This document shows positions 35,700 through 46,566 of a DNA stretch of 64,000 nucleotides, one piece after another. The position numbers and the translations under genes are program-made. The DNA lies in the sequence record MZ560701; one strand, written 5' to 3'. Source of the stretch: Escherichia phage vB_EcoM_TU01. Under the pieces are notes generated by a model. That model saw only the letters and a list, made by a program, of their open reading frames with translations. It was not told the DNA's origin and did no database searches. Within the stretch, counting starts at the first letter, position 1, and each line of letters begins with the position of its first letter.

Positions 35700-36692
35700 A
35701 TGTTACCTGTCGTCGGAAAACTTATTTCTCCAAAAGAACTGGCTGAGATTATTCCTTTGTCGGAAGCTTACGCATCACAAGTGGCTTCTCATCGCGAACA
35801 AGTTAATTCGATTATGAACGGTGAAGACCCACGCAAACTTATTGTTGTAGGTCCTTGTTCAATTCATGACCCTATTGCTGCTGTTGAATACGGCAAACGT
35901 CTGGCTGAACTTCAAACTCGTCTTCCTAATGTTCTGTTAGTGATGCGCGTTTATTTTGAAAAGCCTCGAACTACCGTAGGTTGGAAAGGTCTTGTAAATG
36001 ATCCATATCTTGACGGAAGTTTTGATATGAACCACGGTCTTATAGTTGCACGAACATTGTGTCGTAAACTTCTACGTATGGGACTTCCATTAGCAACTGA
36101 AGTATTAGACCCATTCACGATTAAGTATCTTTCTGGTATTTTCTCATGGGTTGCTATTGGCGCCCGTACGACTGAAAGTCAGACACATCGTGAAATTGCT
36201 TCAGGTCTACCGATGTGCGTAGGCTTCAAGAACGCAACCAATGGTTCTATTAAAGTAGCTACAGACGCGATGTATAGTGCCGCCTGGCCTCATCGGTATA
36301 TGGGTATGGACGTCGATGGTACTGTAGGCATTGTTGAAGCTGAAGGTAATCAGAATACGCATATCGTATTGCGTGGCGGGACCAACGGCCCGAACTATCA
36401 TTCTTCTGATATTCAAGAAGCTTCTAACAAAGCAAGGGCAGTAGGTCTGAATCATTATGTAATGGTTGACTGTAGCCATGCAAACGCTGATGGGCATTAT
36501 AGCAATCAAATTGGTATTGGTAAAAATTTAGCAGCTAATGATTTGGTTAAAGGAATTATGATAGAATCATTCCTACATGAAGGAAATCAAAAAATTTCTG
36601 ATAATATGTCCTATGGCGTTTCCATTACCGATGCGTGCATCAGTTGGGAACAAACTAAAGAGCTGTTAACTTATATTAATAAGGTTCAATAA
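35700..36692 (+). CDS. 3-deoxy-7-phosphoheptulonate (DAHP) synthase, class I AroG/AroF-like
   Basis: 330 aa; GPCSIHDP, VMRVYFEKPRTTVGWKGLVNDP, GARTTESQTHREIASGL, KNATNGSIKVA, DCSHAN, ESFLHEGNQ, SITDACI align with E. coli AroG including the metal ligands; AAGGA RBS; stop overlaps cd start. Confidence 0.92.
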   Translation: MLPVVGKLISPKELAEIIPLSEAYASQVASHREQVNSIMNGEDPRKLIVVGPCSIHDPIAAVEYGKRLAELQTRLPNVLLVMRVYFEKPRTTVGWKGLVNDPYLDGSFDMNHGLIVARTLCRKLLRMGLPLATEVLDPFTIKYLSGIFSWVAIGARTTESQTHREIASGLPMCVGFKNATNGSIKVATDAMYSAAWPHRYMGMDVDGTVGIVEAEGNQNTHIVLRGGTNGPNYHSSDIQEASNKARAVGLNHYVMVDCSHANADGHYSNQIGIGKNLAANDLVKGIMIESFLHEGNQKISDNMSYGVSITDACISWEQTKELLTYINKVQ

Positions 36693-38085: not shown

Positions 38086-38334
38086 ATGACTAAACAATTA
38101 CAACACGCTCTTGAACTGCAACGCNANGCATGGAATAATGGTCACGANAANTANGGCGCATCTATTGATGTTGAAGCCGAAGCTCTTGAAATCNTGCGTT
38201 ATTTCAAACATCTGAATCCNGCTCAGGCTACTCTGGCTGCTGAACTGGAAGCNAAAGATGAATTGAAATATGCTAAGCCTCTGGCTTCTGCAGCACGTAA
38301 AGCAGTTCGTCATTTTGTTATTACCCTGAAGTAA
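38086..38334 (+). CDS. rIII: lysis inhibition accessory protein rIII
   Basis: 82 aa; MTKQLQHALELQR...RKAVRHFVITLK matches T4 rIII. Confidence 0.9.
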   Translation: MTKQLQHALELQRXAWNNGHXXXGASIDVEAEALEIXRYFKHLNXAQATLAAELEXKDELKYAKPLASAARKAVRHFVITLK

Positions 38335-38596
38335 GTTAAATCGAGGAGCCGTCGAANNGTCTGATTATCGATTTGCGAATCNGTATGTTTTAGAAGTACC
38401 GCCCCGACAATTTTACGGTGTACCTCTTGAATGTTACTATCATGCGTCAGAAAAGTGTTAGCTGTGTAAGTCATGGTGGTATGATGACGAGGTTTATGGT
38501 TATCCTGTCGTTAAATATCCAAAACCTATGTTCCCCTTGAGGGCTTGAGCAGGCAATGTCAATAAGTCCTGCATTTTCATTTAAAGAGAATTTATA

Positions 38597-38776
38597 ATGG
38601 CAAAACAAGCTAAAGCAAAGAAAGCAGTCGAAAAGAAAGTTGATGGTACCTCTAAACGCGCTGGATACAAGCGTGGGTCGAACTCTCGTATTAATCAAAC
38701 AGTTGAGAAGATCATGCGCAGAGCACGTGCAGTTCTTCGAGATGATGCTTCTCGTTTTGGAAAGGTTGCTGCATAA
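38597..38776 (+). CDS. small basic hypothetical protein
   Basis: 59-aa Lys/Arg-rich ORF (MAKQAKAKKAVEKK...) followed by a hairpin terminator; below the ORF-track threshold. Confidence 0.5.
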   Translation: MAKQAKAKKAVEKKVDGTSKRAGYKRGSNSRINQTVEKIMRRARAVLRDDASRFGKVAA

Positions 38777-38781
38777 TTTTA

Positions 38782-38803
38782 GGGAGACTTCGGTCTCCCT
38801 TTT
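38782..38803 (+). terminator. intrinsic terminator
   Basis: GGGAGAC-TTCG-GTCTCCC then TTTT after the small basic ORF. Confidence 0.8.
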
Positions 38804-38836
38804 GTGCGTTTAGGGCAGAAAAAGTTTAAAAAAGAT

Positions 38837-38865
38837 GTTTACTCTCCTGTAGGATGTGTTACTAT
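38837..38865 (+). promoter_or_regulatory. T4-type early promoter
   Basis: GTTTAC, 17 bp, TGtTACTAT. Confidence 0.65.
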
Positions 38866-38906
38866 AGACTTGTACCACCTAATCAATAAAACAACCGGAG
38901 AACAAA

Positions 38907-39275
38907 ATGAAAATCAATCTGAACTCATACATCAAATGTAAAGACCACGATGGTTATAAAGCTATCGAAATTAAAGAATTCCAGTGGATGTTATACAAAG
39001 AGCAATTTGAGTTCGTAGGTTGTATGACCCCTGAAGGTCCTTCTGATGATTTCTCTTGGAAAATTGTGTTAGCAAACTTTTTCACAGGTGACACATACGA
39101 ATTAAAAACTATTATTACCGGTAAAATTCGTTCAGAAACATATGTTGACGAAGAAACTGGTTACTCTGAAGATGTTACATGGTATCAAAATGGACGCATT
39201 ACAGCAGATAACCTGATAGAAAAAATGAAAGCCAAAGGTGTTTTAAATTTAGACAATTGGATTAAAGTTGCATAA
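38907..39275 (+). CDS. hypothetical protein
   Basis: 122-aa ORF downstream of an early promoter. Confidence 0.65.
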   Translation: MKINLNSYIKCKDHDGYKAIEIKEFQWMLYKEQFEFVGCMTPEGPSDDFSWKIVLANFFTGDTYELKTIITGKIRSETYVDEETGYSEDVTWYQNGRITADNLIEKMKAKGVLNLDNWIKVA

Positions 39276-39279
39276 AACA

Positions 39280-39308
39280 GTTTACTTTGGTACAGGTTAT
39301 GTTATTAT
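39280..39308 (+). promoter_or_regulatory. T4-type early promoter
   Basis: GTTTAC, 17 bp, TGtTATTAT; inverted repeat GGTACAGGT/ACCTGTACC. Confidence 0.65.
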
Positions 39309-39349
39309 AGACCTGTACCAACAAACAACTTAAACATCTGGAGAATAAA

Positions 39350-39715
39350 ATGAACTACACCAACTTCGAACGTAAATATGTTTCTAACGGTATTGCTGGT
39401 TCTATTGATACGATTTGCTTATGGAAGCATAAAAACGGTNCAGTATGTGAAATTGAACAGTGCATGACTCCTAATTACGTTTATATGCGATTTGAAAATG
39501 GTATCACGGTTTCAATCACGATGGAAGGTTCAAATTTTAAAATTGCATTAGATGATGATTTCCGTCAGCGTGATTTAGGTACTCATCCTTGTTGGAATGG
39601 TGTTAATCGTAAACTTCTGGTTAAAACTTGGATTCGTCATATCCTGAGTAACCGAGCTAAACCTGAACATCTCGAAGCAATCTTTGATGTAGTTCTTAAC
39701 GAATTTGATATCTAA
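39350..39715 (+). CDS. hypothetical protein
   Basis: 121-aa ORF downstream of an early promoter. Confidence 0.65.
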   Translation: MNYTNFERKYVSNGIAGSIDTICLWKHKNGXVCEIEQCMTPNYVYMRFENGITVSITMEGSNFKIALDDDFRQRDLGTHPCWNGVNRKLLVKTWIRHILSNRAKPEHLEAIFDVVLNEFDI

Positions 39716-39750
39716 NTTAATTGGGAGCTTCGGCTCCCACTGAGGAAATT

Positions 39751-40365
39751 ATGTTTAAAGTTAATACTTTTTATAAAATGAATTTTAAAAATGGGGATAT
39801 TACTCCACGCCTTAAAAACATGTTCTCATATGACCTTATTGAGCCTTTTGAAGTTTTAGAAGTTACTGATGCCGGCTCGGTTTGTGAAATTAGAACTTCT
39901 GAAGGTAAAATTTATCAGGCAGGTGTTGGTAAATTTAGTAATTGTTTTACTTTAATATTCTCGACCGATTTATATGAGCATTTTATTGAATGTCCTAACC
40001 CTAAGGTCCACGAAGTTCCACATCAAGAAACTAAGAAAAATGGCCCACACGAATATACGAAGGTTGAAACTCCTCACGGTGAGATGTGGCGACATAACTC
40101 TCCTTTTGGAAGTAAAGGAACATTTGCTCAACCGTCTAAACCGTATGATGATGAAAAATACATCGTCGCCTTTTTATCTGAACAGGGTACTCAAGACCGT
40201 GGATGCCAGCGAAGTGGTTTACTAAGTGAACTTGAAGCCCATAACCAAGCACGTGAATTCGTTGAGAAAAATCCTGGGTCTGAAGCTCTAGTCTTGAAAG
40301 CAATTACTCAATATATCACTGCTCAACCTGTTGTTCATCCGGTAGAAATTAATTTCGTTAAGTAG
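39751..40365 (+). CDS. hypothetical protein
   Basis: 204 aa from the ATG after GAGGA RBS (track ORF begins at an upstream TTG inside a hairpin). Confidence 0.6.
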   Translation: MFKVNTFYKMNFKNGDITPRLKNMFSYDLIEPFEVLEVTDAGSVCEIRTSEGKIYQAGVGKFSNCFTLIFSTDLYEHFIECPNPKVHEVPHQETKKNGPHEYTKVETPHGEMWRHNSPFGSKGTFAQPSKPYDDEKYIVAFLSEQGTQDRGCQRSGLLSELEAHNQAREFVEKNPGSEALVLKAITQYITAQPVVHPVEINFVK

Positions 40366-40366
40366 T

Positions 40367-40397
40367 TTACATCCAAGGACGGATTAGAGTATAATGA
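40367..40397 (+). promoter_or_regulatory. T4-type early promoter
   Basis: GTTTAC, 19 bp, TATAAT. Confidence 0.6.
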
Positions 40398-40419
40398 TTT
40401 CTTTAGTAAGTGGAAAAAT

Positions 40420-40617
40420 ATGAAATTTTTAATAGCACAAACAGTCCAATTAAAAGGTGTTGGAATTCCTGGGATGATTTTTAAAGTTCTCCATGAATTT
40501 AAAACCGCCGCTGGAATTATCAATGAAGCGTATGCTGTTCAATGGGTTGATGGGACTTCTGACATACGTATGGGTAAAGAGTTATCTCCTATTAAAGGGT
40601 TGAAACATGTTGAATAA
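40420..40617 (+). CDS. hypothetical protein
   Basis: 65-aa ORF downstream of an early promoter. Confidence 0.5.
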   Translation: MKFLIAQTVQLKGVGIPGMIFKVLHEFKTAAGIINEAYAVQWVDGTSDIRMGKELSPIKGLKHVE

Positions 40618-40819
40618 ATTAATCCAGAAATTGTTTGGTACGGAAATGATCGAAGTTACTTATCGTGTNACTGACNNNNNNNNNNNNNNNNNNNNNNNNN
40701 NNNNNNNTATCAAGNCAATTAAAATGCCTAAAAATGATGGCNNTTTATCTATCGAAGACCGTATACCTGGTTACGGCCATTGGGCTGATGTTGAAATTAT
40801 AAGTGTTAAAGATGTGTGA
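40607..40819 (+). CDS. hypothetical protein
   Basis: 70-aa ORF; contains a masked N-run. Confidence 0.45.
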   Translation: MLNKLIQKLFGTEMIEVTYRXTDXXXXXXXXXXXIKXIKMPKNDGXLSIEDRIPGYGHWADVEIISVKDV

Positions 40820-41270
40820 ATTAGAAATAAGAAGCAATTTCAAATGGCCGTCATGCGCATTAAGTAATTTCGCCCAATGGCCTTTTGTTATGGATGGTAT
40901 TCAATTCGGAGGACTTGAAGGATTTCTCCAAGGATGTAAGGTGAAAAATGTTGAACAACAAAAACGTATATTTGGGTTGTCTGGATTGGCGGCACAGCAA
41001 GCTGGAAGGTCTTATGCAAGAGCTCAGGACCGTGGGACTCTCTTCTGGTTAGGAGTTCCATTTTCAAGATACTCTGAAGCGTGGAAAGAATTATACACAA
41101 ATGCATATTTTGAAGCCGCGATCCAAAACAAGGGGTTTCGTGATGCCTTACAAGCCTCTAAAGGAAAAATTTTGAAGCACAGCATGGCTAGTGGTCTAAC
41201 AAAAGATGATACAATACTAACCGAAGCTGAATTTATTGATGTGTTAAACCTATTAAGAGACTCTTTATGA
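40803..41270 (+). CDS. NADAR/YbiA-like (DUF1768) putative ADP-ribose-processing hydrolase
   Basis: 155 aa; pattern LSNF..WPF..DG..F...E.FLQ..K and overall size resemble the NADAR fold; assignment by motif recall only. Confidence 0.5.
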   Translation: MLKMCELEIRSNFKWPSCALSNFAQWPFVMDGIQFGGLEGFLQGCKVKNVEQQKRIFGLSGLAAQQAGRSYARAQDRGTLFWLGVPFSRYSEAWKELYTNAYFEAAIQNKGFRDALQASKGKILKHSMASGLTKDDTILTEAEFIDVLNLLRDSL

Positions 41271-42082
41271 AGCCTACTATTTTGACCGATATTGATGGTG
41301 TATGTTTAAGTTGGCAATCTGGACTTCCTTATTTTGCCCAAAAATATAATCTTCCATTAGAACATATTTTAAAAATGATTCAGGACGAAAAATTTATTTC
41401 TCCTGGTAAACTATTCAATACCGATGATAACCTCGGTAAACAATTAATAGAAAAATATAATCGCTCTGATTTTATTCGTTACTTAGCGCCTTATTCGGAT
41501 GCTCTTCGAGTTATCAATAAACTAAAAGAAGACTATAATTTTGTAGCCGTGACGGCGCTAGGTGATTCAATTGATGCTCGATTGAATAGACAATTTAATT
41601 TGAATGCTTTGTTCCCAGGCGCTTTCTCTGAAGTAATGATGTGTGGACATGATTCTTCAAAGGAACAATTATTCGAACTAGCTAAAACAAAATATAACGT
41701 GATTTGTTACGTTGACGATTTAGCTCATCACTGTGACCATGCAGCAGAAATTCTTAATGTACCGATTTATTGGTTGGCTCGTGGTGAACGTGATGATATT
41801 CCTCGCACTGCACAACGTGTACACACGTGGGATGATATTGAATCTCGTTTGGTTCCACCAGAGCATAATTCAGATTCAGATCGTGAAGACCTTTTAAAAC
41901 GATTGGCGGATTTGCTTAAAGAATCCGGTACAACAAGTCCAGGTGCATGGCCTAATCAAATTGGCACTCCGTCGAATCCGTATACCTGGCGAACCCCAGG
42001 ACCAACCAATATGCAGCCATGGTGGACGATTCAAAACTTTCCTTTAGATTCGTCCAAATGGACTTGGTCTACAAATTGTTAA
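41267..42082 (+). CDS. HAD-superfamily phosphatase/nucleotidase-like protein
   Basis: 271 aa; N-terminal HAD motif I LTDIDGV, later VDDL; unusual Trp/Pro-rich C-terminal tail. Confidence 0.65.
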   Translation: MKPTILTDIDGVCLSWQSGLPYFAQKYNLPLEHILKMIQDEKFISPGKLFNTDDNLGKQLIEKYNRSDFIRYLAPYSDALRVINKLKEDYNFVAVTALGDSIDARLNRQFNLNALFPGAFSEVMMCGHDSSKEQLFELAKTKYNVICYVDDLAHHCDHAAEILNVPIYWLARGERDDIPRTAQRVHTWDDIESRLVPPEHNSDSDREDLLKRLADLLKESGTTSPGAWPNQIGTPSNPYTWRTPGPTNMQPWWTIQNFPLDSSKWTWSTNC

Positions 42083-42091
42083 GGGTTAATT

Positions 42092-42361
42092 ATGTTTGTA
42101 GTTCATGATATTACAGATGGCAAAAACACAACGCGTGACTACGGTCACGTTAACATGTTCTTTCGAGATTGGCCGGTGTTTCGTTCAGTAAAAGACGCAG
42201 AAATATTTAAAGAGTGTGTTGAACAAGGGTTCATCTACATTTCAGAATATTATGTTGAAGGTCTTGGTAAATGGATTACCACTTATCAGAAAACGCTGAA
42301 ATCGCTTCTAGATGAAGTGGCTTATAATAGAACCGTAACCAAAATCGAGGACATCAAATGA
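42092..42361 (+). CDS. hypothetical protein
   Basis: 89-aa ORF immediately upstream of ligase. Confidence 0.6.
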   Translation: MFVVHDITDGKNTTRDYGHVNMFFRDWPVFRSVKDAEIFKECVEQGFIYISEYYVEGLGKWITTYQKTLKSLLDEVAYNRTVTKIEDIK

Positions 42362-43851
42362 TTTTAGATATTTTAAACCAAATAGCTGCGATCGGTTCTA
42401 CTAAAACAAAACAAGAAATCCTTAAGAAAAATAAGGACAACAAATTACTTGAACGTGTGTATCGTTTAACATATGCACGTGGTATCCAGTATTATATTAA
42501 GAAATGGCCAGGACCTGGTGAAAGGTCTCAAGCGTATGGACTTATTGAATTAGATGACATGTTGGATTTTATTGAGTTCACATTAGCCACTCGTAAACTC
42601 ACTGGTAATGCTGCAATTAAAGAGCTCATGGGTTATATNGCNGACGGTAAACCTGATGATGTAGAAGTCCTTCGTCGTGTAATGATGCGCGACCTTGAAG
42701 TAGGTGCTTCAGTGTCTATCGCGAATAAGGTGTGGCCTGGACTTATTCAATTGCAGCCACAGATGTTAGCATCTGCATATGATGAGAAATTGATTACTAA
42801 AAATATTAAATGGCCTGCATTTGCCCAATTAAAAGCAGATGGTGCTCGTTGTTTCGCTGAAGTTCGCGATGATGGTGTTCAATTCTTTTCTCGTGCCGGT
42901 AACGAATACCATGGTCTTACTCTATTAGCGGATGAACTAATGGAAATGACTAAAGAAGCTCGTGAAAGACACCCTAATGGGGTTTTAATCGACGGTGAAT
43001 TAGTTTATCATTCATTCGATATTAAAAAGGTTGTGAGCTCAGGAAATGATCTGTCGTTCTTATTTGGTGATAATGAAGAATCTGAAGAAGTACAAGTTGC
43101 AGACCGTAGCACTTCAAATGGTTTAGCAAATAAATCTCTTCAAGGGACTATTTCTCCTAAAGAAGCGGAAGGTATGGTTCTTCAAGCCTGGGACTATGTT
43201 CCTTTAGATGAAGTCTATTCTGATGGCAAAATTAAAGGTCAGAAATACGATGTTCGTTTTGCTGCTCTTGAAAATATGGCTGAAGGCTTTAAGCGAATTG
43301 AGCCAATTGAAAATCAGTTAGTTCGTAATCTTGACGAAGCTAAAGTGGTTTATAAAAAATACGTTGACCAAGGTCTTGAAGGTATTATCCTTAAAAACCG
43401 TGATTCATATTGGGAAAACAAACGCTCTAAGAACCTAATTAAATTTAAAGAAGTTATTGATATCGCTTTAGAAGTTGTAGGATACTATGAACACTCTAAA
43501 GACCCTAACAAATTAGGTGGTGTCGAACTCGTATCACGTTGTCGTCGTATTACAACTGATTGTGGTTCAGGTTTTAAAGATACAACTCATAAAACAGTTG
43601 ACGGTGTAAAGGTTCTTATTCCTTTAGACGAGCGTCATGATTTAGACCGTGAACGATTAATGACAGAAGCTCGTGAAGGCAAATTAATTGGACGTATCGC
43701 TGATTGTGAATGTAATGGTTGGGTTCATTCTAAAGGCCGTGAAGGTACTGTAGGTATTTTCCTTCCAATTATTAAAGGGTTCCGTTTTGATAAAACAGAA
43801 GCGGATTCATTTGAAGACGTATTTGGACCTTGGTCCCAGACAGGTTTATAA
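42358..43851 (+). CDS. 30: ATP-dependent DNA ligase
   Basis: 497 aa; MILDILNQIAAIGSTKTKQEILKKNKDN, adenylation motif KADGAR, GLEGIILKN; matches T4 gp30. Confidence 0.97.
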   Translation: MILDILNQIAAIGSTKTKQEILKKNKDNKLLERVYRLTYARGIQYYIKKWPGPGERSQAYGLIELDDMLDFIEFTLATRKLTGNAAIKELMGYXXDGKPDDVEVLRRVMMRDLEVGASVSIANKVWPGLIQLQPQMLASAYDEKLITKNIKWPAFAQLKADGARCFAEVRDDGVQFFSRAGNEYHGLTLLADELMEMTKEARERHPNGVLIDGELVYHSFDIKKVVSSGNDLSFLFGDNEESEEVQVADRSTSNGLANKSLQGTISPKEAEGMVLQAWDYVPLDEVYSDGKIKGQKYDVRFAALENMAEGFKRIEPIENQLVRNLDEAKVVYKKYVDQGLEGIILKNRDSYWENKRSKNLIKFKEVIDIALEVVGYYEHSKDPNKLGGVELVSRCRRITTDCGSGFKDTTHKTVDGVKVLIPLDERHDLDRERLMTEAREGKLIGRIADCECNGWVHSKGREGTVGIFLPIIKGFRFDKTEADSFEDVFGPWSQTGL

Positions 43852-44039
43852 TGAAAGCTTATTTAGAAACAGTTNTTGTCGCTAATAAGGATGGTNGNGA
43901 TGTTTCCACCTCTTGTTCCCAAATTGTATTAGATTTTCCTAATGAAAATTCCTATCGGGTTTTCGTAGACAATGTTAATGGGTACGAAAAAGGCCCTAAT
44001 TTTGAAGTTTATCGTACTTTGCTCCCGATTGTAGATTAA
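43851..44039 (+). CDS. hypothetical protein
   Basis: 62-aa ORF starting TAATG-coupled to the ligase stop. Confidence 0.55.
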   Translation: MKAYLETVXVANKDGXDVSTSCSQIVLDFPNENSYRVFVDNVNGYEKGPNFEVYRTLLPIVD

Positions 44040-44058
44040 GAGCCTTCGGGCTCTTTTT
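44039..44058 (+). terminator. intrinsic terminator upstream of alt
   Basis: AGAGCC-TTCG-GGCTCT then TTTTT. Confidence 0.75.
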
Positions 44059-44094
44059 GGCATAAATATAAATTATTACTAAAAGGAAAACACT

Positions 44095-46182
44095 ATGTCC
44101 GAACAATTAAATGAAGTGTTTGAATCTGAAGGCAGTCTTCCTGTCGTCAATTTGAACCCTAAAGCTAAAGTTCCGCAAGTCTGGAAAATTGGNGATGTTG
44201 ATACAAACATCGTAGTTCGCTTATTCTCTTACCTTTCTGAAGGCGATGCTGTAAAACAAGTTAAACTTGGCGANAAATANGCTCATGTTGTTATTATGAG
44301 TCTGTCTGAAAAGGGTAATCTCGCTGAATTGAAAAATGGCCTTGGTCCTGCTCCTATTGATGCAATCAACACCATTTTCAATACAGTATATGAACAGGTT
44401 AAAGCTCTTCGTATGGATGCAGTTCTGTTCCGATTCCCTACCAAGAAATTGAAAGGACGTGGACAACANCTTCAAACTCTTCTTGCTCGTTTAGTTTCTA
44501 CTAAAACCGGTGGTCGTTTTAAAGTATTGTCGGCAATGTATCAATTCACAGGTAAACACACCTATGTGATGATGGTTCGTAAAAATGCCAACATTGAAGA
44601 TATTAAAGGCATCCCTAACATTAACACAGAGTTGTANACGAAAGTAGATTCTGATGTTGGCGAAGTTTATGTNAGTAAAAAGACTGGCGAAAAGGTCACC
44701 AAAGAAACGGCTATCGCTGGTTCTATTGCTGCTGTAGAAGAAAAACGTAAAGATAAGCCTGTTATTGCTCGNACTAAAATTTCTCGTCGTGCTATTGCAG
44801 CAAGTCAATCTTTAGAAGCTGACCGCCAAGAAGGTGAGTTATTCCAGAAATATGAAAATTCTGCTAAAGAAGTTAGTGGCCCAGCTACAGCCGAATTACT
44901 TCCTGAAGCATATGAAATTGTACTAGCTCAAGCATCGTCCACAGCAAAAGGCACTTTAGTTGCTGATATCGAAAATAAGATTTATAATCGTATTGATGAA
45001 TCCTTTAAATTTGCCGATGAAGTTTCTTATGGTAGTGTTATTAAGCCGACTTTAGAAAAGTTTGCTAAGAAAATTAAAACCGAAAAAACAACATCTGTTA
45101 AAGCATTAGCTGCTTTTGTTGAAGCTGCAAATGAAATTGCAGACTCTATTAAAGACGAATGGTTTGAAGATTTTAGACGTGATAATTTCCAACTGCCTGA
45201 CGACGTTTTAGCTGAAGTATCTGAAAGAACTTGGAAACAACGTAAATCAGCGTTCTTGTCTAATGTGATGTATACTTATGCNNGAGAATCGGCTAGAGGC
45301 ACCTTTAATATAACAATGAATCGGGACCCTAAACAATACTCTGTTGCTGAAAAACGAGCTATTCGTGAATATGCCTCTTCCGCGTATACCGATATCAATA
45401 ATATGTTGTTAGGTCGTTATAAACCAGATTTTTACGATGTTGCAGATGAAGATGAAGTTAAACGCGCTATTGATGGTCTTGATTCAGCGTTTTTAAATGG
45501 AGACCGTTTACCTGAAGGACTAACGTTATATAGAGCTCAGTCTATCAGAATGCCTATTTACGAAGCAATGGTTAAAAATAAGGTATTCTACTTCAGAAAC
45601 TATGTTTCCACTTCACTAGCTCCTATTATTTTCGGCGGGTTTAAAGAGAACGTTGCCCTTGGACTTGCTCCTGAAGAAGTTCGCAAAGAGCTTAACATTG
45701 ATAATAATGACGAAGGTGTTACTATTTCTCCTAGCCAAGTAAGAACAGCTATGCATGCACCAGAACAAATCCGTGTTAACGTTGGATGGGCCATTGATGG
45801 CGCCCATAAAGTTAACGTGATTTATCCAGGACAGTTGAGTAATCACCCTAATGAGCAAGAAATTATTTTGCCTAGAGGCATTCTCTTGCAGATAAATAAA
45901 ATTACAGATGCGTCATCTGACACTGGTGCAGGTTTAGAATCCAACCTTAAATTTATTCAAGCTGAAGTCATGTCCTCGGACCAGTTGGACGAAGCTGTCA
46001 TTTACGATGGTGATGTTCTCATGGAAACAGGCGAGGTGGTTGCTATGACGGGTGAAATCGAATCAGATGAGCCGGTATCGTTCTCCTCATTTGTAGAAAA
46101 AACTAGTGCACCTAAAGGTTTGAAATTGTTAGCATCTTTAATGGATTTAGAATCAGTTCCGTTTAAATTTGTCCAAGGATAG
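44095..46182 (+). CDS. alt: ADP-ribosyltransferase Alt (virion-packaged)
   Basis: 695 aa; C-terminal ART domain with YRAQS...STSL...E core; size and position match T4 Alt. Confidence 0.9.
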   Translation: MSEQLNEVFESEGSLPVVNLNPKAKVPQVWKIXDVDTNIVVRLFSYLSEGDAVKQVKLGXKXAHVVIMSLSEKGNLAELKNGLGPAPIDAINTIFNTVYEQVKALRMDAVLFRFPTKKLKGRGQXLQTLLARLVSTKTGGRFKVLSAMYQFTGKHTYVMMVRKNANIEDIKGIPNINTELXTKVDSDVGEVYXSKKTGEKVTKETAIAGSIAAVEEKRKDKPVIAXTKISRRAIAASQSLEADRQEGELFQKYENSAKEVSGPATAELLPEAYEIVLAQASSTAKGTLVADIENKIYNRIDESFKFADEVSYGSVIKPTLEKFAKKIKTEKTTSVKALAAFVEAANEIADSIKDEWFEDFRRDNFQLPDDVLAEVSERTWKQRKSAFLSNVMYTYXXESARGTFNITMNRDPKQYSVAEKRAIREYASSAYTDINNMLLGRYKPDFYDVADEDEVKRAIDGLDSAFLNGDRLPEGLTLYRAQSIRMPIYEAMVKNKVFYFRNYVSTSLAPIIFGGFKENVALGLAPEEVRKELNIDNNDEGVTISPSQVRTAMHAPEQIRVNVGWAIDGAHKVNVIYPGQLSNHPNEQEIILPRGILLQINKITDASSDTGAGLESNLKFIQAEVMSSDQLDEAVIYDGDVLMETGEVVAMTGEIESDEPVSFSSFVEKTSAPKGLKLLASLMDLESVPFKFVQG

Positions 46183-46211
46183 TTTACAAACACATGGATG
46201 TGTGATACTAT
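46182..46211 (+). promoter_or_regulatory. T4-type early promoter
   Basis: GTTTAC, 18 bp, TGtgaTACTAT; GGATG/CATCC dyad. Confidence 0.6.
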
Positions 46212-46240
46212 CATCCCATCAACAACATGAGGAAAACGTT

Positions 46241-46534
46241 ATGAAATCTATGCTTCGCTTTAATGGTCAAGAACTAGTAGTTGAAGATGCTATCCCAGCG
46301 GATGATGTTTTTAACGAAGCTGTGATTGACGAATTGAATCGAGTATTCCCGGGTGCATTCCATATTGCTATGGAACCTCTTAAAAACTTTCGTGACCCTG
46401 AACACACCGATCAAATTTTTATCGGTGTAGTGACAGGTCATTTAGAAACAGAGGTACCAATGGTCGTATTAGTTAAATACTCTAAAGATGATACTCCATT
46501 CCGAGCACCAGCATTCCTTTCATTCCGTAAATAA
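46241..46534 (+). CDS. hypothetical protein
   Basis: 97 aa from the ATG after GAGGAAAA RBS, downstream of an early promoter. Confidence 0.65.
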   Translation: MKSMLRFNGQELVVEDAIPADDVFNEAVIDELNRVFPGAFHIAMEPLKNFRDPEHTDQIFIGVVTGHLETEVPMVVLVKYSKDDTPFRAPAFLSFRK

Positions 46535-46543
46535 ACCCCTAAA

Positions 46544-46566
46544 GGGAGACNACGTCTCCCTTTTTC
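46544..46566. terminator. terminator between convergent alt-downstream ORF and gene 54
   Basis: GGGAGAC-loop-GTCTCCC then TTTTT. Confidence 0.7.

What the first reader, a model, noticed from the sequence alone, without database searches (positions are those of the whole stretch)
40803..42082. NADAR-like hydrolase plus HAD phosphatase pair upstream of DNA ligase
ORF 40803..41270 has a YbiA/NADAR-like pattern (LSNF..WPF..DG..F...E.FLQ..K); NADAR domains are linked to ADP-ribose processing, including reversal of guanine ADP-ribosylation by DarT-type toxins. It is translationally coupled to a HAD-superfamily phosphatase (DxDGV motif) with an odd Trp/Pro-rich C-terminal tail. The same window encodes the Alt ADP-ribosyltransferase, so the phage carries both writer and possible eraser activities. 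The pair could be a counter-defence or nucleotide-salvage module. The NADAR assignment is from motif recall only.
Basis: inference. Interest (0 to 1): 0.55.

Follow-up and report, generated by a model that had tools for sequence, protein, structure and literature searches.

The report
Known anti-DarT NADAR plus HAD phosphatase
The first gene is this T4-like phage's copy of AdfN (gp30.3), an already published enzyme that strips ADP-ribose off phage DNA to defeat the bacterial DarTG1 defence; the overlapping second gene is a phosphatase of unknown substrate that published T4 data show is not needed for that defence.

Summary
The window is a Mosigvirus (JS09/RB69-like T-even phage).

**ORF1 (gp30.3/AdfN).** Its true start is the ATG at 40812 and it runs to 41270 (152 aa). 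It matches Pfam PF08010 at E 6e-69 and is 96% identical to T4 AdfN. It keeps catalytic E36 and K43, the phage-type H123 and the C-terminal helix, and it lacks the frameshift that inactivates RB69's copy. My model's only meaningful PDB matches are the three NADAR structures. T4 AdfN is published as a guanine-ADP-ribose DNA glycohydrolase that neutralises DarTG1, so this part is already known.

**The pair.** Published T4 transposon data show 30.2 is dispensable against DarTG1. In related phages the phosphatase is linked to DNA ligase (74/78 loci) far more than to AdfN (37/78). Bacteroidales do encode fused gp30.3-type NADAR-NT5C proteins, some beside ADP-ribose enzymes, so a shared role remains possible but unproven. 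The Alt "writer/eraser" idea has no support.

The parts
40812..41270 (+). adfN (gene 30.3): gp30.3-type NADAR DNA ADP-ribosylglycohydrolase, 152 aa. Catalytic E36 at 40917-40919, K43 at 40938-40940, phage-type H123 at 41178-41180, C-terminal helix at residues 138-151.
   Evidence: - PF08010 E 6.8e-69.
- 96% identity over 152/152 aa to T4 gp30.3.
- E36, H123 invariant and K43 at least 90% conserved in 56 family representatives.
- AF2 model pLDDT 80; top three PDB hits are YbiA 2b3w, 8bat and 8bau.
- No RB69-type T insertion at nt 411.
- Function taken from PMC11825919.
40803..40811 (+).
   Evidence: The annotated start in JS09, RB69 and T4 is the ATG at 40812. Homologue N-termini begin M-(S/C/P)-E-L-E-I-R-S. 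These bases lie within the gene 30.4 coding sequence.
41267..42082 (+). Gene 30.2: HAD-superfamily phosphatase with a helical C1 cap, 271 aa. Motif I D8/D10 at 41288-41296, motif II T96 at 41552-41554, motif III K132 at 41660-41662, motif IV D150/D151 at 41714-41719.
   Evidence: - D8, D10, K132 invariant; T96, D150, D151 at least 90% conserved in 48 homologues.
- AF2 pLDDT above 90 for residues 1-190.
- Foldseek: 89 PDB hits with E<=0.001; the 50 listed are almost all HAD-superfamily enzymes (plus a few designed or engineered proteins), including cdN/mdN deoxyribonucleotidases.
- Pfam HAD_2 only E 0.019, below cut-off.
- hhalign to the NT5C domain of NADAR-NT5C fusions: E 1.8e-5, probability 78%.
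41939..42079 (+). Trp/Pro-rich C-terminal tail of gp30.2 (residues 225-271); predicted disordered and lineage-variable.
   Evidence: 8 Pro, 7 Thr and 6 Trp in 47 residues. pLDDT 43-53. In homologues the tail ranges from 0 to 148 aa and is enriched in Pro (10.8% vs 4.3% in the core) and Trp (3.2% vs 1.3%).
41267..41270 (+). ATGA overlap: the start codon of 30.2 overlaps the stop codon of adfN (an arrangement typical of translational coupling).
   Evidence: Read directly from the sequence. T4 has the same 4-base overlap. RB69 has lost it through its frameshift.
40607..40819 (+). Gene 30.4 (70 aa, partly masked by N in the window). Its stop overlaps the adfN start (ATGTGTGA). It is the only other T4 gene depleted under DarTG1.
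   Evidence: T4 HIDEN-SEQ DarTG1 sheet: log2FC -1.79, adjusted p 0.014; the sheet reports two significant genes in total.
40366..40395 (+). Best sigma-70-like promoter match upstream of 30.5-30.4-adfN-30.2-30.1-ligase (TTTACA-18-TATAAT, 11 of 12).
   Evidence: This is a consensus match only: the number of sites in the region is not above the shuffled control (29 vs 25 +/- 5). The only + strand terminator-like site downstream of it is at 46541.
42358..43851 (+). Gene 30, ATP-dependent DNA ligase; the gene most consistently linked to the gp30.2-type phosphatase across T4-like phages.
   Evidence: PF01068 E 1.8e-26. A ligase lies downstream on the same strand, within 1.5 kb, in 74 of 78 viral loci that encode a gp30.2 relative.

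Best explanation
The two overlapping early genes are the Mosigvirus orthologues of T4 30.3 and 30.2.

**Gene 30.3 is adfN.** It encodes a gp30.3-type NADAR enzyme. It hydrolyses the N-glycosidic bond between guanine in DNA and ADP-ribose. This removes the marks that the host DarT1 toxin places on phage DNA, so replication can proceed in DarTG1 hosts. Unlike RB69's frameshifted copy, this allele is intact and should be active. The function is shown for the T4 orthologue and inferred here from 96% identity and conserved catalytic residues.

**Gene 30.2 is a separate enzyme.** It is a Mg-dependent HAD phosphomonoesterase with a four/five-helix C1 cap. That architecture is typical of small-molecule substrates. 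It most resembles NT5C-type 5'(3')-(deoxy)nucleotidases. It probably dephosphorylates a nucleotide or sugar phosphate during early infection, but the substrate is not known.

**The overlap is organisational, not obligatory.** The ATGA overlap co-expresses the two proteins in T-even phages. AdfN does not need gp30.2 to defeat DarTG1, and gp30.2 is an older, more widely kept companion of the DNA ligase gene.
For: **AdfN identity**
- PF08010 at E 6.8e-69.
- 146/152 residues identical to T4 gp30.3, including E36 and K43.
- H123 invariant in the family.
- Intact relative to RB69's T insertion.

**NADAR fold**
- The three top PDB matches are the NADAR structures; everything below them is noise.
- The family profile's best PDB sequence hit is YbiA (E 0.0035), aligned across LSNF..E..Q..K.
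- 16 of 61 family members also touch Pfam NADAR.

**Function (published)**
- T4 AdfN is necessary against DarTG1.
- Ectopic T4 adfN restores plaquing of RB69, whose own copy is truncated, on DarTG1 hosts, though it gives only slight rescue to non-T-even phages.
- It removes ADP-ribose from DNA in vitro.
- E36A and K43A variants and the C-terminally truncated variant are impaired (PMC11825919).
- An independent study found in vitro activity on guanine-ADPr (PMC11125620).
- HIDEN-SEQ gives log2FC -7.25 for 30.3 under DarTG1.

**gp30.2 as a HAD enzyme**
- Motifs are conserved.
- The model is confident and shows a C1 cap.
- Motif I (DIDGVCLSWQSGL) resembles mouse cdN (NMDGVLADFESGL, D12N variant).
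- hhalign to an NT5C-domain family gives E 1.8e-5.

**Independence of the two genes**
- 30.2 is neutral under DarTG1 and non-essential.
- Ligase lies downstream in 74/78 gp30.2 loci, against AdfN upstream in 37/78.
- 16 of 30 gp30.3 loci have no gp30.2 within 4 kb. In the same phage genome the two genes can lie about 60-100 kb apart.
Against: - No experiment was done on this phage's proteins; function is by orthology.
- The window protein does not reach any Pfam NADAR, HAD or NT5C threshold by itself. The HAD call therefore rests on a predicted structure plus conserved motifs.
- Wherever both genes are near each other, 30.3 is always upstream on the same strand (37/37).
- Bacteroidales have a large family of single proteins that fuse a gp30.3-type NADAR to an NT5C domain in that same order, some next to ADP-ribosyl glycohydrolase and SIR2 genes. 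This argues for some functional tie that the "merely organisational" reading underrates.
- Conserved order next to ligase may be plain vertical synteny and says little about function.
Confidence: 0.72

Rival explanations
1. gp30.2 and AdfN are a split form of a two-domain enzyme and work in sequence. AdfN (or another glycohydrolase) releases ADP-ribose or an ADP-ribosylated nucleotide. gp30.2 then removes a terminal phosphate from that product or its breakdown products (for example ADP-ribose-1''-phosphate, ribose-5-phosphate, AMP, ADP-ribosyl-dGMP). The benefit would show against ADP-ribosylating or NAD-based defences other than the one DarTG1 tested.
For: - ATGA overlap here and in T4.
- 30.3 is always upstream on the same strand when the genes are linked (37 loci).
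- PF08010+NT5C fusions in the same N-to-C order form a large Bacteroidales family; all 120 listed hits have both domains, on contigs up to 2.6 Mb.
- In L112-L115 the fusion sits directly after an ADP_ribosyl_GH gene, with SIR2 and VWA genes nearby.
- The gp30.2 family aligns to the fusion's HAD domain over 137 columns, E 1.8e-5.
- PMC9503650 notes frequent coupling of ADP-ribose glycohydrolases with phosphatases, including a HAD 5'-nucleotidase.
Against: - 30.2 insertions are neutral under DarTG1 in T4.
- The genes are unlinked or 30.3 is absent nearby in about half of gp30.2 loci.
- A second Bacteroidales context has no recognisable ADP-ribose genes.
- The gp30.2-to-fusion-HAD similarity is modest (probability 78%).
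- Free ADP-ribose has no phosphomonoester, so a Nudix-type step would be needed first.
Confidence: 0.22
2. gp30.2 is the unidentified T-even factor that AdfN-T4 needs for full activity outside T-even infection.
For: - The AdfN paper infers that another T-even protein is required.
- gp30.2 is co-translated with AdfN.
- It is present in RB69, where ectopic AdfN works. That it is absent from E. coli and from T5/Bas25, where AdfN works poorly, is assumed, not checked.
Against: If gp30.2 were required, 30.2 insertions should be depleted under DarTG1. They are not: 71 sites, log2FC -0.12, p 0.61. Only 30.3 and 30.4 are significant.
Confidence: 0.03
3. gp30.2 is a DNA-end phosphatase (3'-phosphate removal) that prepares nicks for the adjacent DNA ligase, like the HAD domain of T4 PseT/PNKP.
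For: HAD-ligase adjacency in 74 of 78 loci across diverse T4-like phages. Polynucleotide 3'-phosphatases are HAD enzymes (established knowledge of T4 Pnkp).
Against: - The model has a large helical C1 cap between motif I and the next core helix (H16-72). That is typical of small-molecule HADs; polynucleotide phosphatases are capless (established HAD classification).
- T4-like phages already encode PseT.
- 30.2 is non-essential.
- The best structural and sequence resemblance is to nucleotidases.
Confidence: 0.05
4. AdfN is the eraser for the phage's own writers (Alt/ModA/ModB), tuning self-inflicted ADP-ribosylation.
For: Alt is encoded about 3 kb downstream in the same transcriptional direction. 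PMC9503650 notes that T4-like NADARs are early genes expressed along with ARTs.
Against: - Characterised activity is on guanine-ADP-ribose in DNA. It does not act on thymidine-ADPr.
- Alt modifies proteins (annotation).
- adfN is dispensable without DarTG1, and alt is neutral with it.
Confidence: 0.03

Closest known systems
T4 AdfN (gp30.3), anti-DarT factor NADAR (Johannesman et al. 2025, PMC11825919; in vitro activity in PMC11125620)
   Same: - Orthologue: same position between 30.4 and 30.2, same length (152 aa), 96% identity.
- E36, K43 and H123 are conserved.
- The C-terminal helix is present.
- Same ATGA overlap with 30.2.
   Different: Six substitutions (S2C, R11K, R51K, P89E, V120I, I125M). 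The host phage is a Mosigvirus, the genus whose type phage RB69 carries a frameshifted, non-functional allele; this allele is intact. Not tested experimentally.
DarG1 / DarT1-associated NADAR (BC4488 family, e.g. Geobacter lovleyi 8BAT) and E. coli YbiA (2B3W)
   Same: Same alpha+beta NADAR fold (Foldseek TM 0.50-0.63). Same catalytic Glu/Lys region. DarG1 has the same chemistry on guanine-ADP-ribose.
   Different: - Sequence identity is only 16-18%.
- The last-strand catalytic Glu (YbiA) or Asp (DarG1) is His here.
- It lacks DarG1's N-terminal extension.
- It is an orphan with no cognate toxin.
- The T4 protein does not rescue DarT1 toxicity in uninfected cells.
NT5C-family 5'(3')-deoxyribonucleotidases (cdN/mdN; Pfam PF06941; PDB 2JAO, 2I7D, 1Q92, 3BWV)
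   Same: - HAD core plus C1 helical cap.
- DxDGV motif I followed by (F/W)(E/Q)SGL.
- DD motif IV.
- TM to target 0.62-0.69.
   Different: - No Pfam NT5C hit for gp30.2.
- The PDB profile search is not significant (E 0.78).
- gp30.2 has an extra helix and a 47-residue disordered Trp/Pro tail.
- The substrate is unknown.
Bacteroidales NADAR(gp30.3-type)-NT5C fusion proteins (e.g. P0188, P0367; unnamed in databases)
   Same: The same two domain types in the same order as the phage gene pair. The NADAR half is PF08010 type. The HAD half aligns with the gp30.2 family.
   Different: - They are one polypeptide of about 320-380 aa.
- They are encoded on bacterial chromosomes, in some genomes in an operon with ADP_ribosyl_GH, SIR2, RelA/SpoT and VWA genes.
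- The HAD half is a bona fide Pfam NT5C member, whereas gp30.2 is not.

Membership tests
AdfN / gp30.3 family (Pfam PF08010, phage-type NADAR) | Full-length match to the PF08010 profile above the curated cut-off | tested here: met
   230.5 bits against a cut-off of 36; profile positions 1-138 of 138.
AdfN / gp30.3 family (Pfam PF08010, phage-type NADAR) | Catalytic E36 and K43, and His in the last strand in place of the Glu/Asp of other NADARs | tested here: met
   E36, K43 and H123 are present. E36 and H123 are invariant and K43 is at least 90% conserved in 56 representatives.
AdfN / gp30.3 family (Pfam PF08010, phage-type NADAR) | Intact C-terminal helix (lost in the inactive RB69 allele) | tested here: met
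   No T insertion at nt 411. Helix 138-151 appears in the model.
AdfN / gp30.3 family (Pfam PF08010, phage-type NADAR) | Removes ADP-ribose from guanine in DNA and confers DarTG1 resistance | not testable with these tools
   Shown for the T4 orthologue only.
NADAR superfamily (Pfam PF08719; YbiA/DarG1) | Match to the Pfam NADAR profile | tested here: not met
   No PF08719 hit for the window protein at E<=1. 16 of 61 family members give hits at E<=0.01 (best 1.2e-6); the three individually checked (17.7-19.1 bits) fall below the 35.1-bit cut-off.
NADAR superfamily (Pfam PF08719; YbiA/DarG1) | NADAR alpha+beta fold | tested here: met
   The top three PDB matches are 2b3w (E 6e-5, TM 0.63), 8bat and 8bau; the next hit has E 3.5. 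The model has pLDDT 80 from a shallow 7-sequence alignment.
NADAR superfamily (Pfam PF08719; YbiA/DarG1) | Sequence-profile link across the catalytic SNF...E..Q..K region | tested here: met
   The family profile's best PDB hit is YbiA, E 0.0035, aligning LSNF/EGfLQslK with FSNF/EHYFQAQK. The link is weak but specific.
HAD superfamily phosphatases | Four catalytic motifs: DxD, S/T, K/R, DD | tested here: met
   D8, D10 and K132 are invariant; T96, D150 and D151 are at least 90% conserved in 48 sequences.
HAD superfamily phosphatases | Rossmannoid HAD core fold with a cap | tested here: met
HAD superfamily phosphatases | Pfam/NCBIfam HAD profile above the curated cut-off | tested here: not met
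   HAD_2 scores 15.5 bits against a cut-off of 23.8 (E 0.019). TIGR01428 scores 12.8 against 125.4.
HAD superfamily phosphatases | Mg-dependent phosphomonoesterase activity | not testable with these tools
   No biochemical data on gp30.2 were found in the literature searches.
NT5C 5'(3')-deoxyribonucleotidase family (PF06941) | Match to the PF06941 profile | tested here: not met
   No hit at E<=1. The cdN PDB sequence scores E 0.78 in both the single-sequence and the profile search.
NT5C 5'(3')-deoxyribonucleotidase family (PF06941) | Family-typical motif I context DxDGV...(F/W)(E/Q)SGL and closest structural neighbours | tested here: inconclusive

The most novel reading that the evidence does not exclude
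gp30.2 is the second half of a split NADAR-phosphatase enzyme, of which Bacteroidales encode the fused form in ADP-ribose-processing operons. Together with AdfN it clears ADP-ribose-derived phosphorylated products or ADP-ribosylated nucleotides. This would protect T-even phages against ADP-ribosylating or NAD-based defences other than the single DarTG1 system tested so far. Its Trp/Pro tail would dock it to a partner.
Probability: 0.2. Interest if true: 0.5.

Novelty: already known. Interest (0 to 1): 0.22.

Why it matters
**Practical point.** This Mosigvirus carries an intact adfN, whereas the type phage of its genus (RB69) has a frameshifted copy. It is therefore predicted to resist DarTG1. 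That is useful for predicting host range and for choosing phages.

**What remains open.**
- The function of gp30.2. This conserved HAD phosphatase sits next to DNA ligase in most T4-like phages, is co-translated with AdfN in T-even phages, and mirrors a fused NADAR-NT5C protein in Bacteroidales.
- The identity of the T-even factor that AdfN needs. Published screen data point away from gp30.2. If anything they point to the small upstream gene 30.4, or to a polar effect of insertions there.

Tried and rejected
1. **Direct sequence route to NADAR or HAD.** Pfam NADAR, NT5C, NCBIfam, PADLOC and phmmer against PDB gave nothing significant for either protein. The assignments needed structure prediction and family profiles.
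2. **gp30.2 as AdfN's missing T-even cofactor.** Rejected: T4 HIDEN-SEQ shows 30.2 is neutral under DarTG1.
3. **Obligate gene pair.** Rejected: only 37 of 78 gp30.2 loci have 30.3 nearby, and 16 of 30 gp30.3 loci lack gp30.2 within 4 kb.
4. **Direct homology between gp30.2 and the HAD half of the fusions.**
   - phmmer found nothing.
   - A gp30.2-family HMM search found only a motif I match in P0188 at E 0.018.
   - Single-sequence hhalign was weak.
   - Only the family-versus-family hhalign was informative.
5. **Profile of the gp30.2 family against PDB sequences.** Not significant.
6. **Looking up genomic context of the representative-library hits.** I used the last homologue search on P0188 instead.
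7. **Literature search for gp30.2 function.** Nothing relevant.
8. **Promoter/terminator scan.** Site counts do not exceed the shuffled control, so the promoter at 40366 is only a suggestion.
9. **Recent transfer as the reason for AdfN's high identity to T4.** Not supported: at the DNA level the window's adfN is closest to RB69's, so conservation rather than exchange explains it.
Full report
**Where the window comes from.** The 1.8 kb around the finding matches 686 phage records. The best matches are T-even phages of the genus Mosigvirus (SSE1, JS09 and others) at 97% identity. Gene coordinates in Escherichia phage JS09 (NC_024124) are identical to the window's. The region is the classical T4 early block: 30.9 ... 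30.4, 30.3, 30.2, 30.1, 30 (DNA ligase), alt.1, alt.

**Checking the observation.** Both ORFs are present.
- ORF1 contains the quoted motif (CALSNFAQWPFVMDGIQFGGLEGFLQGCK).
- Its stop overlaps the ORF2 start as ATGA.
- ORF2 begins MKPTILTDIDGVC.
- The last 47 residues of ORF2 contain 8 Pro and 6 Trp.
- One correction: the GTG at 40803 lies inside gene 30.4. The start used in JS09, RB69 and T4 is the ATG at 40812. It sits in an ATGTGTGA overlap with the 30.4 stop. With that start the protein is 152 aa and its residue numbers coincide with T4's.

**ORF1 is AdfN.**
- The protein matches Pfam PF08010 (Bacteriophage protein GP30.3) end to end at E 6.8e-69. It does not hit Pfam NADAR directly.
- It is 146/152 identical to T4 gp30.3.
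- Johannesman et al. (Nat Commun 2025, PMC11825919) renamed T4 30.3 as adfN, anti-DarT factor NADAR. They report the following:
  - It is necessary for T4 to resist DarTG1.
  - Ectopic T4 adfN restores plaquing of RB69 on DarTG1 hosts.
  - The purified protein removes ADP-ribose from DarT1-modified DNA.
  - E36A and K43A variants and a C-terminally truncated variant are impaired.
  - RB69 is DarTG1-sensitive because a T insertion at nt 411 truncates its copy.
- An independent study showed in vitro guanine-ADP-ribose hydrolysis by the phage gp30.3 protein. It also noted that phage NADARs carry His where YbiA has Glu and DarG1 has Asp (PMC11125620; PMC11543638).
- A T4 transposon screen found 30.3 insertions lost under DarTG1, with log2FC -7.25 (bioRxiv 10.1101/2025.11.20.689424).
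- The window protein keeps E36, K43 and H123. In 56 diverse family representatives, E36 and H123 are invariant and K43 is at least 90% conserved.
- A three-way DNA alignment shows the window lacks RB69's insertion, so the C-terminal helix (residues 138-151 in my model) is intact.

**Testing the NADAR assignment myself.**
- An AlphaFold2 model (pLDDT 80, from only 7 sequences) finds exactly three meaningful PDB matches. They are E. coli YbiA 2B3W (E 6e-5, TM 0.63), Geobacter lovleyi NADAR 8BAT and Phytophthora NADAR 8BAU. Everything below them is noise.
- An exhaustive profile search found 1378 family representatives.
- 16 of 61 sampled members also touch Pfam NADAR (E<=0.01); the ones checked individually fall below its cut-off.
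- A family profile's best PDB sequence hit is YbiA (E 0.0035), aligned over the catalytic SNF...E..Q..K stretch.
- So ORF1 is a member of the NADAR superfamily by fold and active site. Within it, it belongs to the gp30.3/AdfN branch.

**ORF2 is a HAD phosphatase.**
- Sequence profiles alone are weak: HAD_2 at E 0.019, below cut-off; PHROG 420 of unknown function; PDB cdN at E 0.78.
- 98 homologues exist, almost all labelled as T4-like phage proteins.
- In an alignment of 48 of them, the four HAD motifs stand out. D8, D10 and K132 are invariant; T96, D150 and D151 are at least 90% conserved.
- The AF2 model is confident (pLDDT above 90 for residues 1-190). It shows a helical insertion at residues 16-72, directly after motif I, which is a C1 cap.
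- Foldseek returns 89 PDB hits at E<=0.001. Those listed are almost all HAD-superfamily enzymes, plus a few designed or engineered proteins. The best TM scores go to 5'(3')-deoxyribonucleotidases (cdN, mdN, 3BWV).
- Motif I plus its continuation (DIDGVCLSWQSGL) resembles the NT5C pattern, as in mouse cdN NMDGVLADFESGL (D12N variant).
- My reading is a capped, small-molecule HAD phosphomonoesterase that is NT5C-like but not a Pfam NT5C member.
- The tail (residues 225-271) is predicted disordered. Across homologues it varies from 0 to 148 residues and is enriched in Pro and Trp. Many tails, including T4's, carry a G(T/G)GIEYLxxxPT motif that this allele lacks.

**Are the two genes a functional pair?**

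Evidence for a tie:
- The ATGA overlap is shared with T4.
- In 37 viral loci where both genes lie within 4 kb, 30.3 is always upstream on the same strand.
- A large Bacteroidales family fuses a PF08010 NADAR to a Pfam NT5C domain in that same order. All 120 listed hits have both domains; contigs reach 2.6 Mb; source names include Prevotella and Bacteroidaceae.
- In one conserved context the fusion follows an ADP_ribosyl_GH gene, with SIR2, RelA/SpoT and VWA genes nearby.
- The gp30.2 family aligns to the fusion's HAD half over 137 columns (hhalign E 1.8e-5, probability 78%).
- Iyer et al. (PMC9503650) describe frequent coupling of ADP-ribose glycohydrolases with phosphatases, including a HAD 5'-nucleotidase.

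Evidence against a required partnership:
- In the T4 DarTG1 screen, gene 30.2 is neutral (71 sites, log2FC -0.12, p 0.61). Only two genes are significant, 30.3 and 30.4.
- 30.2 is non-essential in T4.
- gp30.2 relatives are followed by DNA ligase in 74 of 78 loci but preceded by 30.3 in only 37.
- 16 of 30 gp30.3 loci lack gp30.2 within 4 kb. In three contigs found by both scans the two genes lie about 60-100 kb apart.
- A second Bacteroidales context has no ADP-ribose genes.

My conclusion is that AdfN acts on its own against DarTG1. gp30.2 has its own, still unknown, phosphatase role. A sequential role on ADP-ribose-derived products remains a minority possibility.

**The Alt idea.** Alt is indeed downstream. 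However, AdfN's characterised substrate is guanine-linked ADP-ribose on DNA, and it does not act on thymidine-ADPr. Alt modifies proteins. alt insertions are also neutral under DarTG1. Nothing supports a writer/eraser relationship.

**Expression.** The best sigma-70-like site is at 40366-40395, upstream of 30.5. The only + strand terminator-like site downstream of it is at 46541, which is consistent with one early transcript running through ligase and alt. The site counts do not exceed the shuffled control, so this is only suggestive.

**Verdict.**
- The main interpretation, a NADAR enzyme that reverses DarT-type guanine ADP-ribosylation plus a HAD phosphatase, is correct.
- The NADAR gene is an orthologue of a published, experimentally characterised counter-defence gene, so the finding is already known.
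- Small residual interest lies in three things: the intact allele in an RB69-like phage, the uncharacterised gp30.2 phosphatase with its bacterial fused counterpart, and the unexplained 30.4 signal in the T4 screen.

Noticed in passing
window 40607-40819 (gene 30.4; N-masked at 40669, 40676-40707, 40715, 40742-40743): In the published T4 DarTG1 transposon screen, the only significant gene besides adfN is the small upstream gene 30.4 (log2FC -1.79, adjusted p 0.014). Its stop overlaps the adfN start. This could be polarity on adfN. Alternatively, 30.4 could be the unidentified T-even factor that AdfN is reported to need.
   Followed up: partly
window 40948-41052 (+), inside adfN in another frame: T4 annotates an internal out-of-frame gene 30.3' (75 aa). 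The same frame is interrupted by a stop after 34 codons in both the window and RB69. So 30.3' is not conserved and is probably not a real gene.
   Followed up: yes
L112 2846-11835 (also L113-L115), Bacteroidales metagenome contigs: A conserved operon-like block: SIR2, three small unknown proteins, ADP_ribosyl_GH, a NADAR(PF08010)-NT5C fusion, a 223-aa unknown, a RelA/SpoT-HD protein, and a VWA protein. It looks like an ADP-ribose-centred conflict system and shows that the "phage-type" His NADAR is also bacterial.
   Followed up: partly
proteins P0257, P0134, P0180 and others: gp30.3-type NADAR domains are also fused to Tpt1/KptA RNA 2'-phosphotransferase (P0257), BspA-type leucine-rich repeats, ASCH, HD_4 and DUF6939 domains. 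The Tpt1 fusion links this NADAR branch to ADP-ribose-1'',2''-cyclic phosphate chemistry.
   Followed up: no
window 35700-36692 (by JS09 annotation): A phospho-2-dehydro-3-deoxyheptonate aldolase (DAHP synthase) gene lies between cd.2 and cd in JS09. In the T4 stretch I looked at, cd.1 occupies that position and no DAHP synthase is annotated there. It appears to be an auxiliary metabolic gene of this phage group.
   Followed up: no
window 41939-42079 versus T4 gp30.2 tail (L001 9475-9640, minus strand): Many gp30.2 tails, including T4's (GGIEYLYNRPT), end with a recurring G(T/G)GIEYLxxxPT motif. The window's tail instead ends ...WWTIQNFPLDSSKWTWSTNC. This suggests two alternative short linear motifs on a disordered tail.
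   Followed up: partly
window 40760-41836 versus 42311-43520: adfN and the first half of 30.2 are much better conserved with T4 (84% nt; AdfN 96% aa) than the flanking ligase region (68% nt) or the gp30.2 C-terminus. This is consistent with strong purifying selection on AdfN.
   Followed up: partly
window 38125-46551, scattered: Single N bases and one 32-base N run are scattered through the region. They produce X residues in several translated ORFs (30.4, 30.7, ligase, Alt), but none falls within adfN or 30.2.
   Followed up: yes
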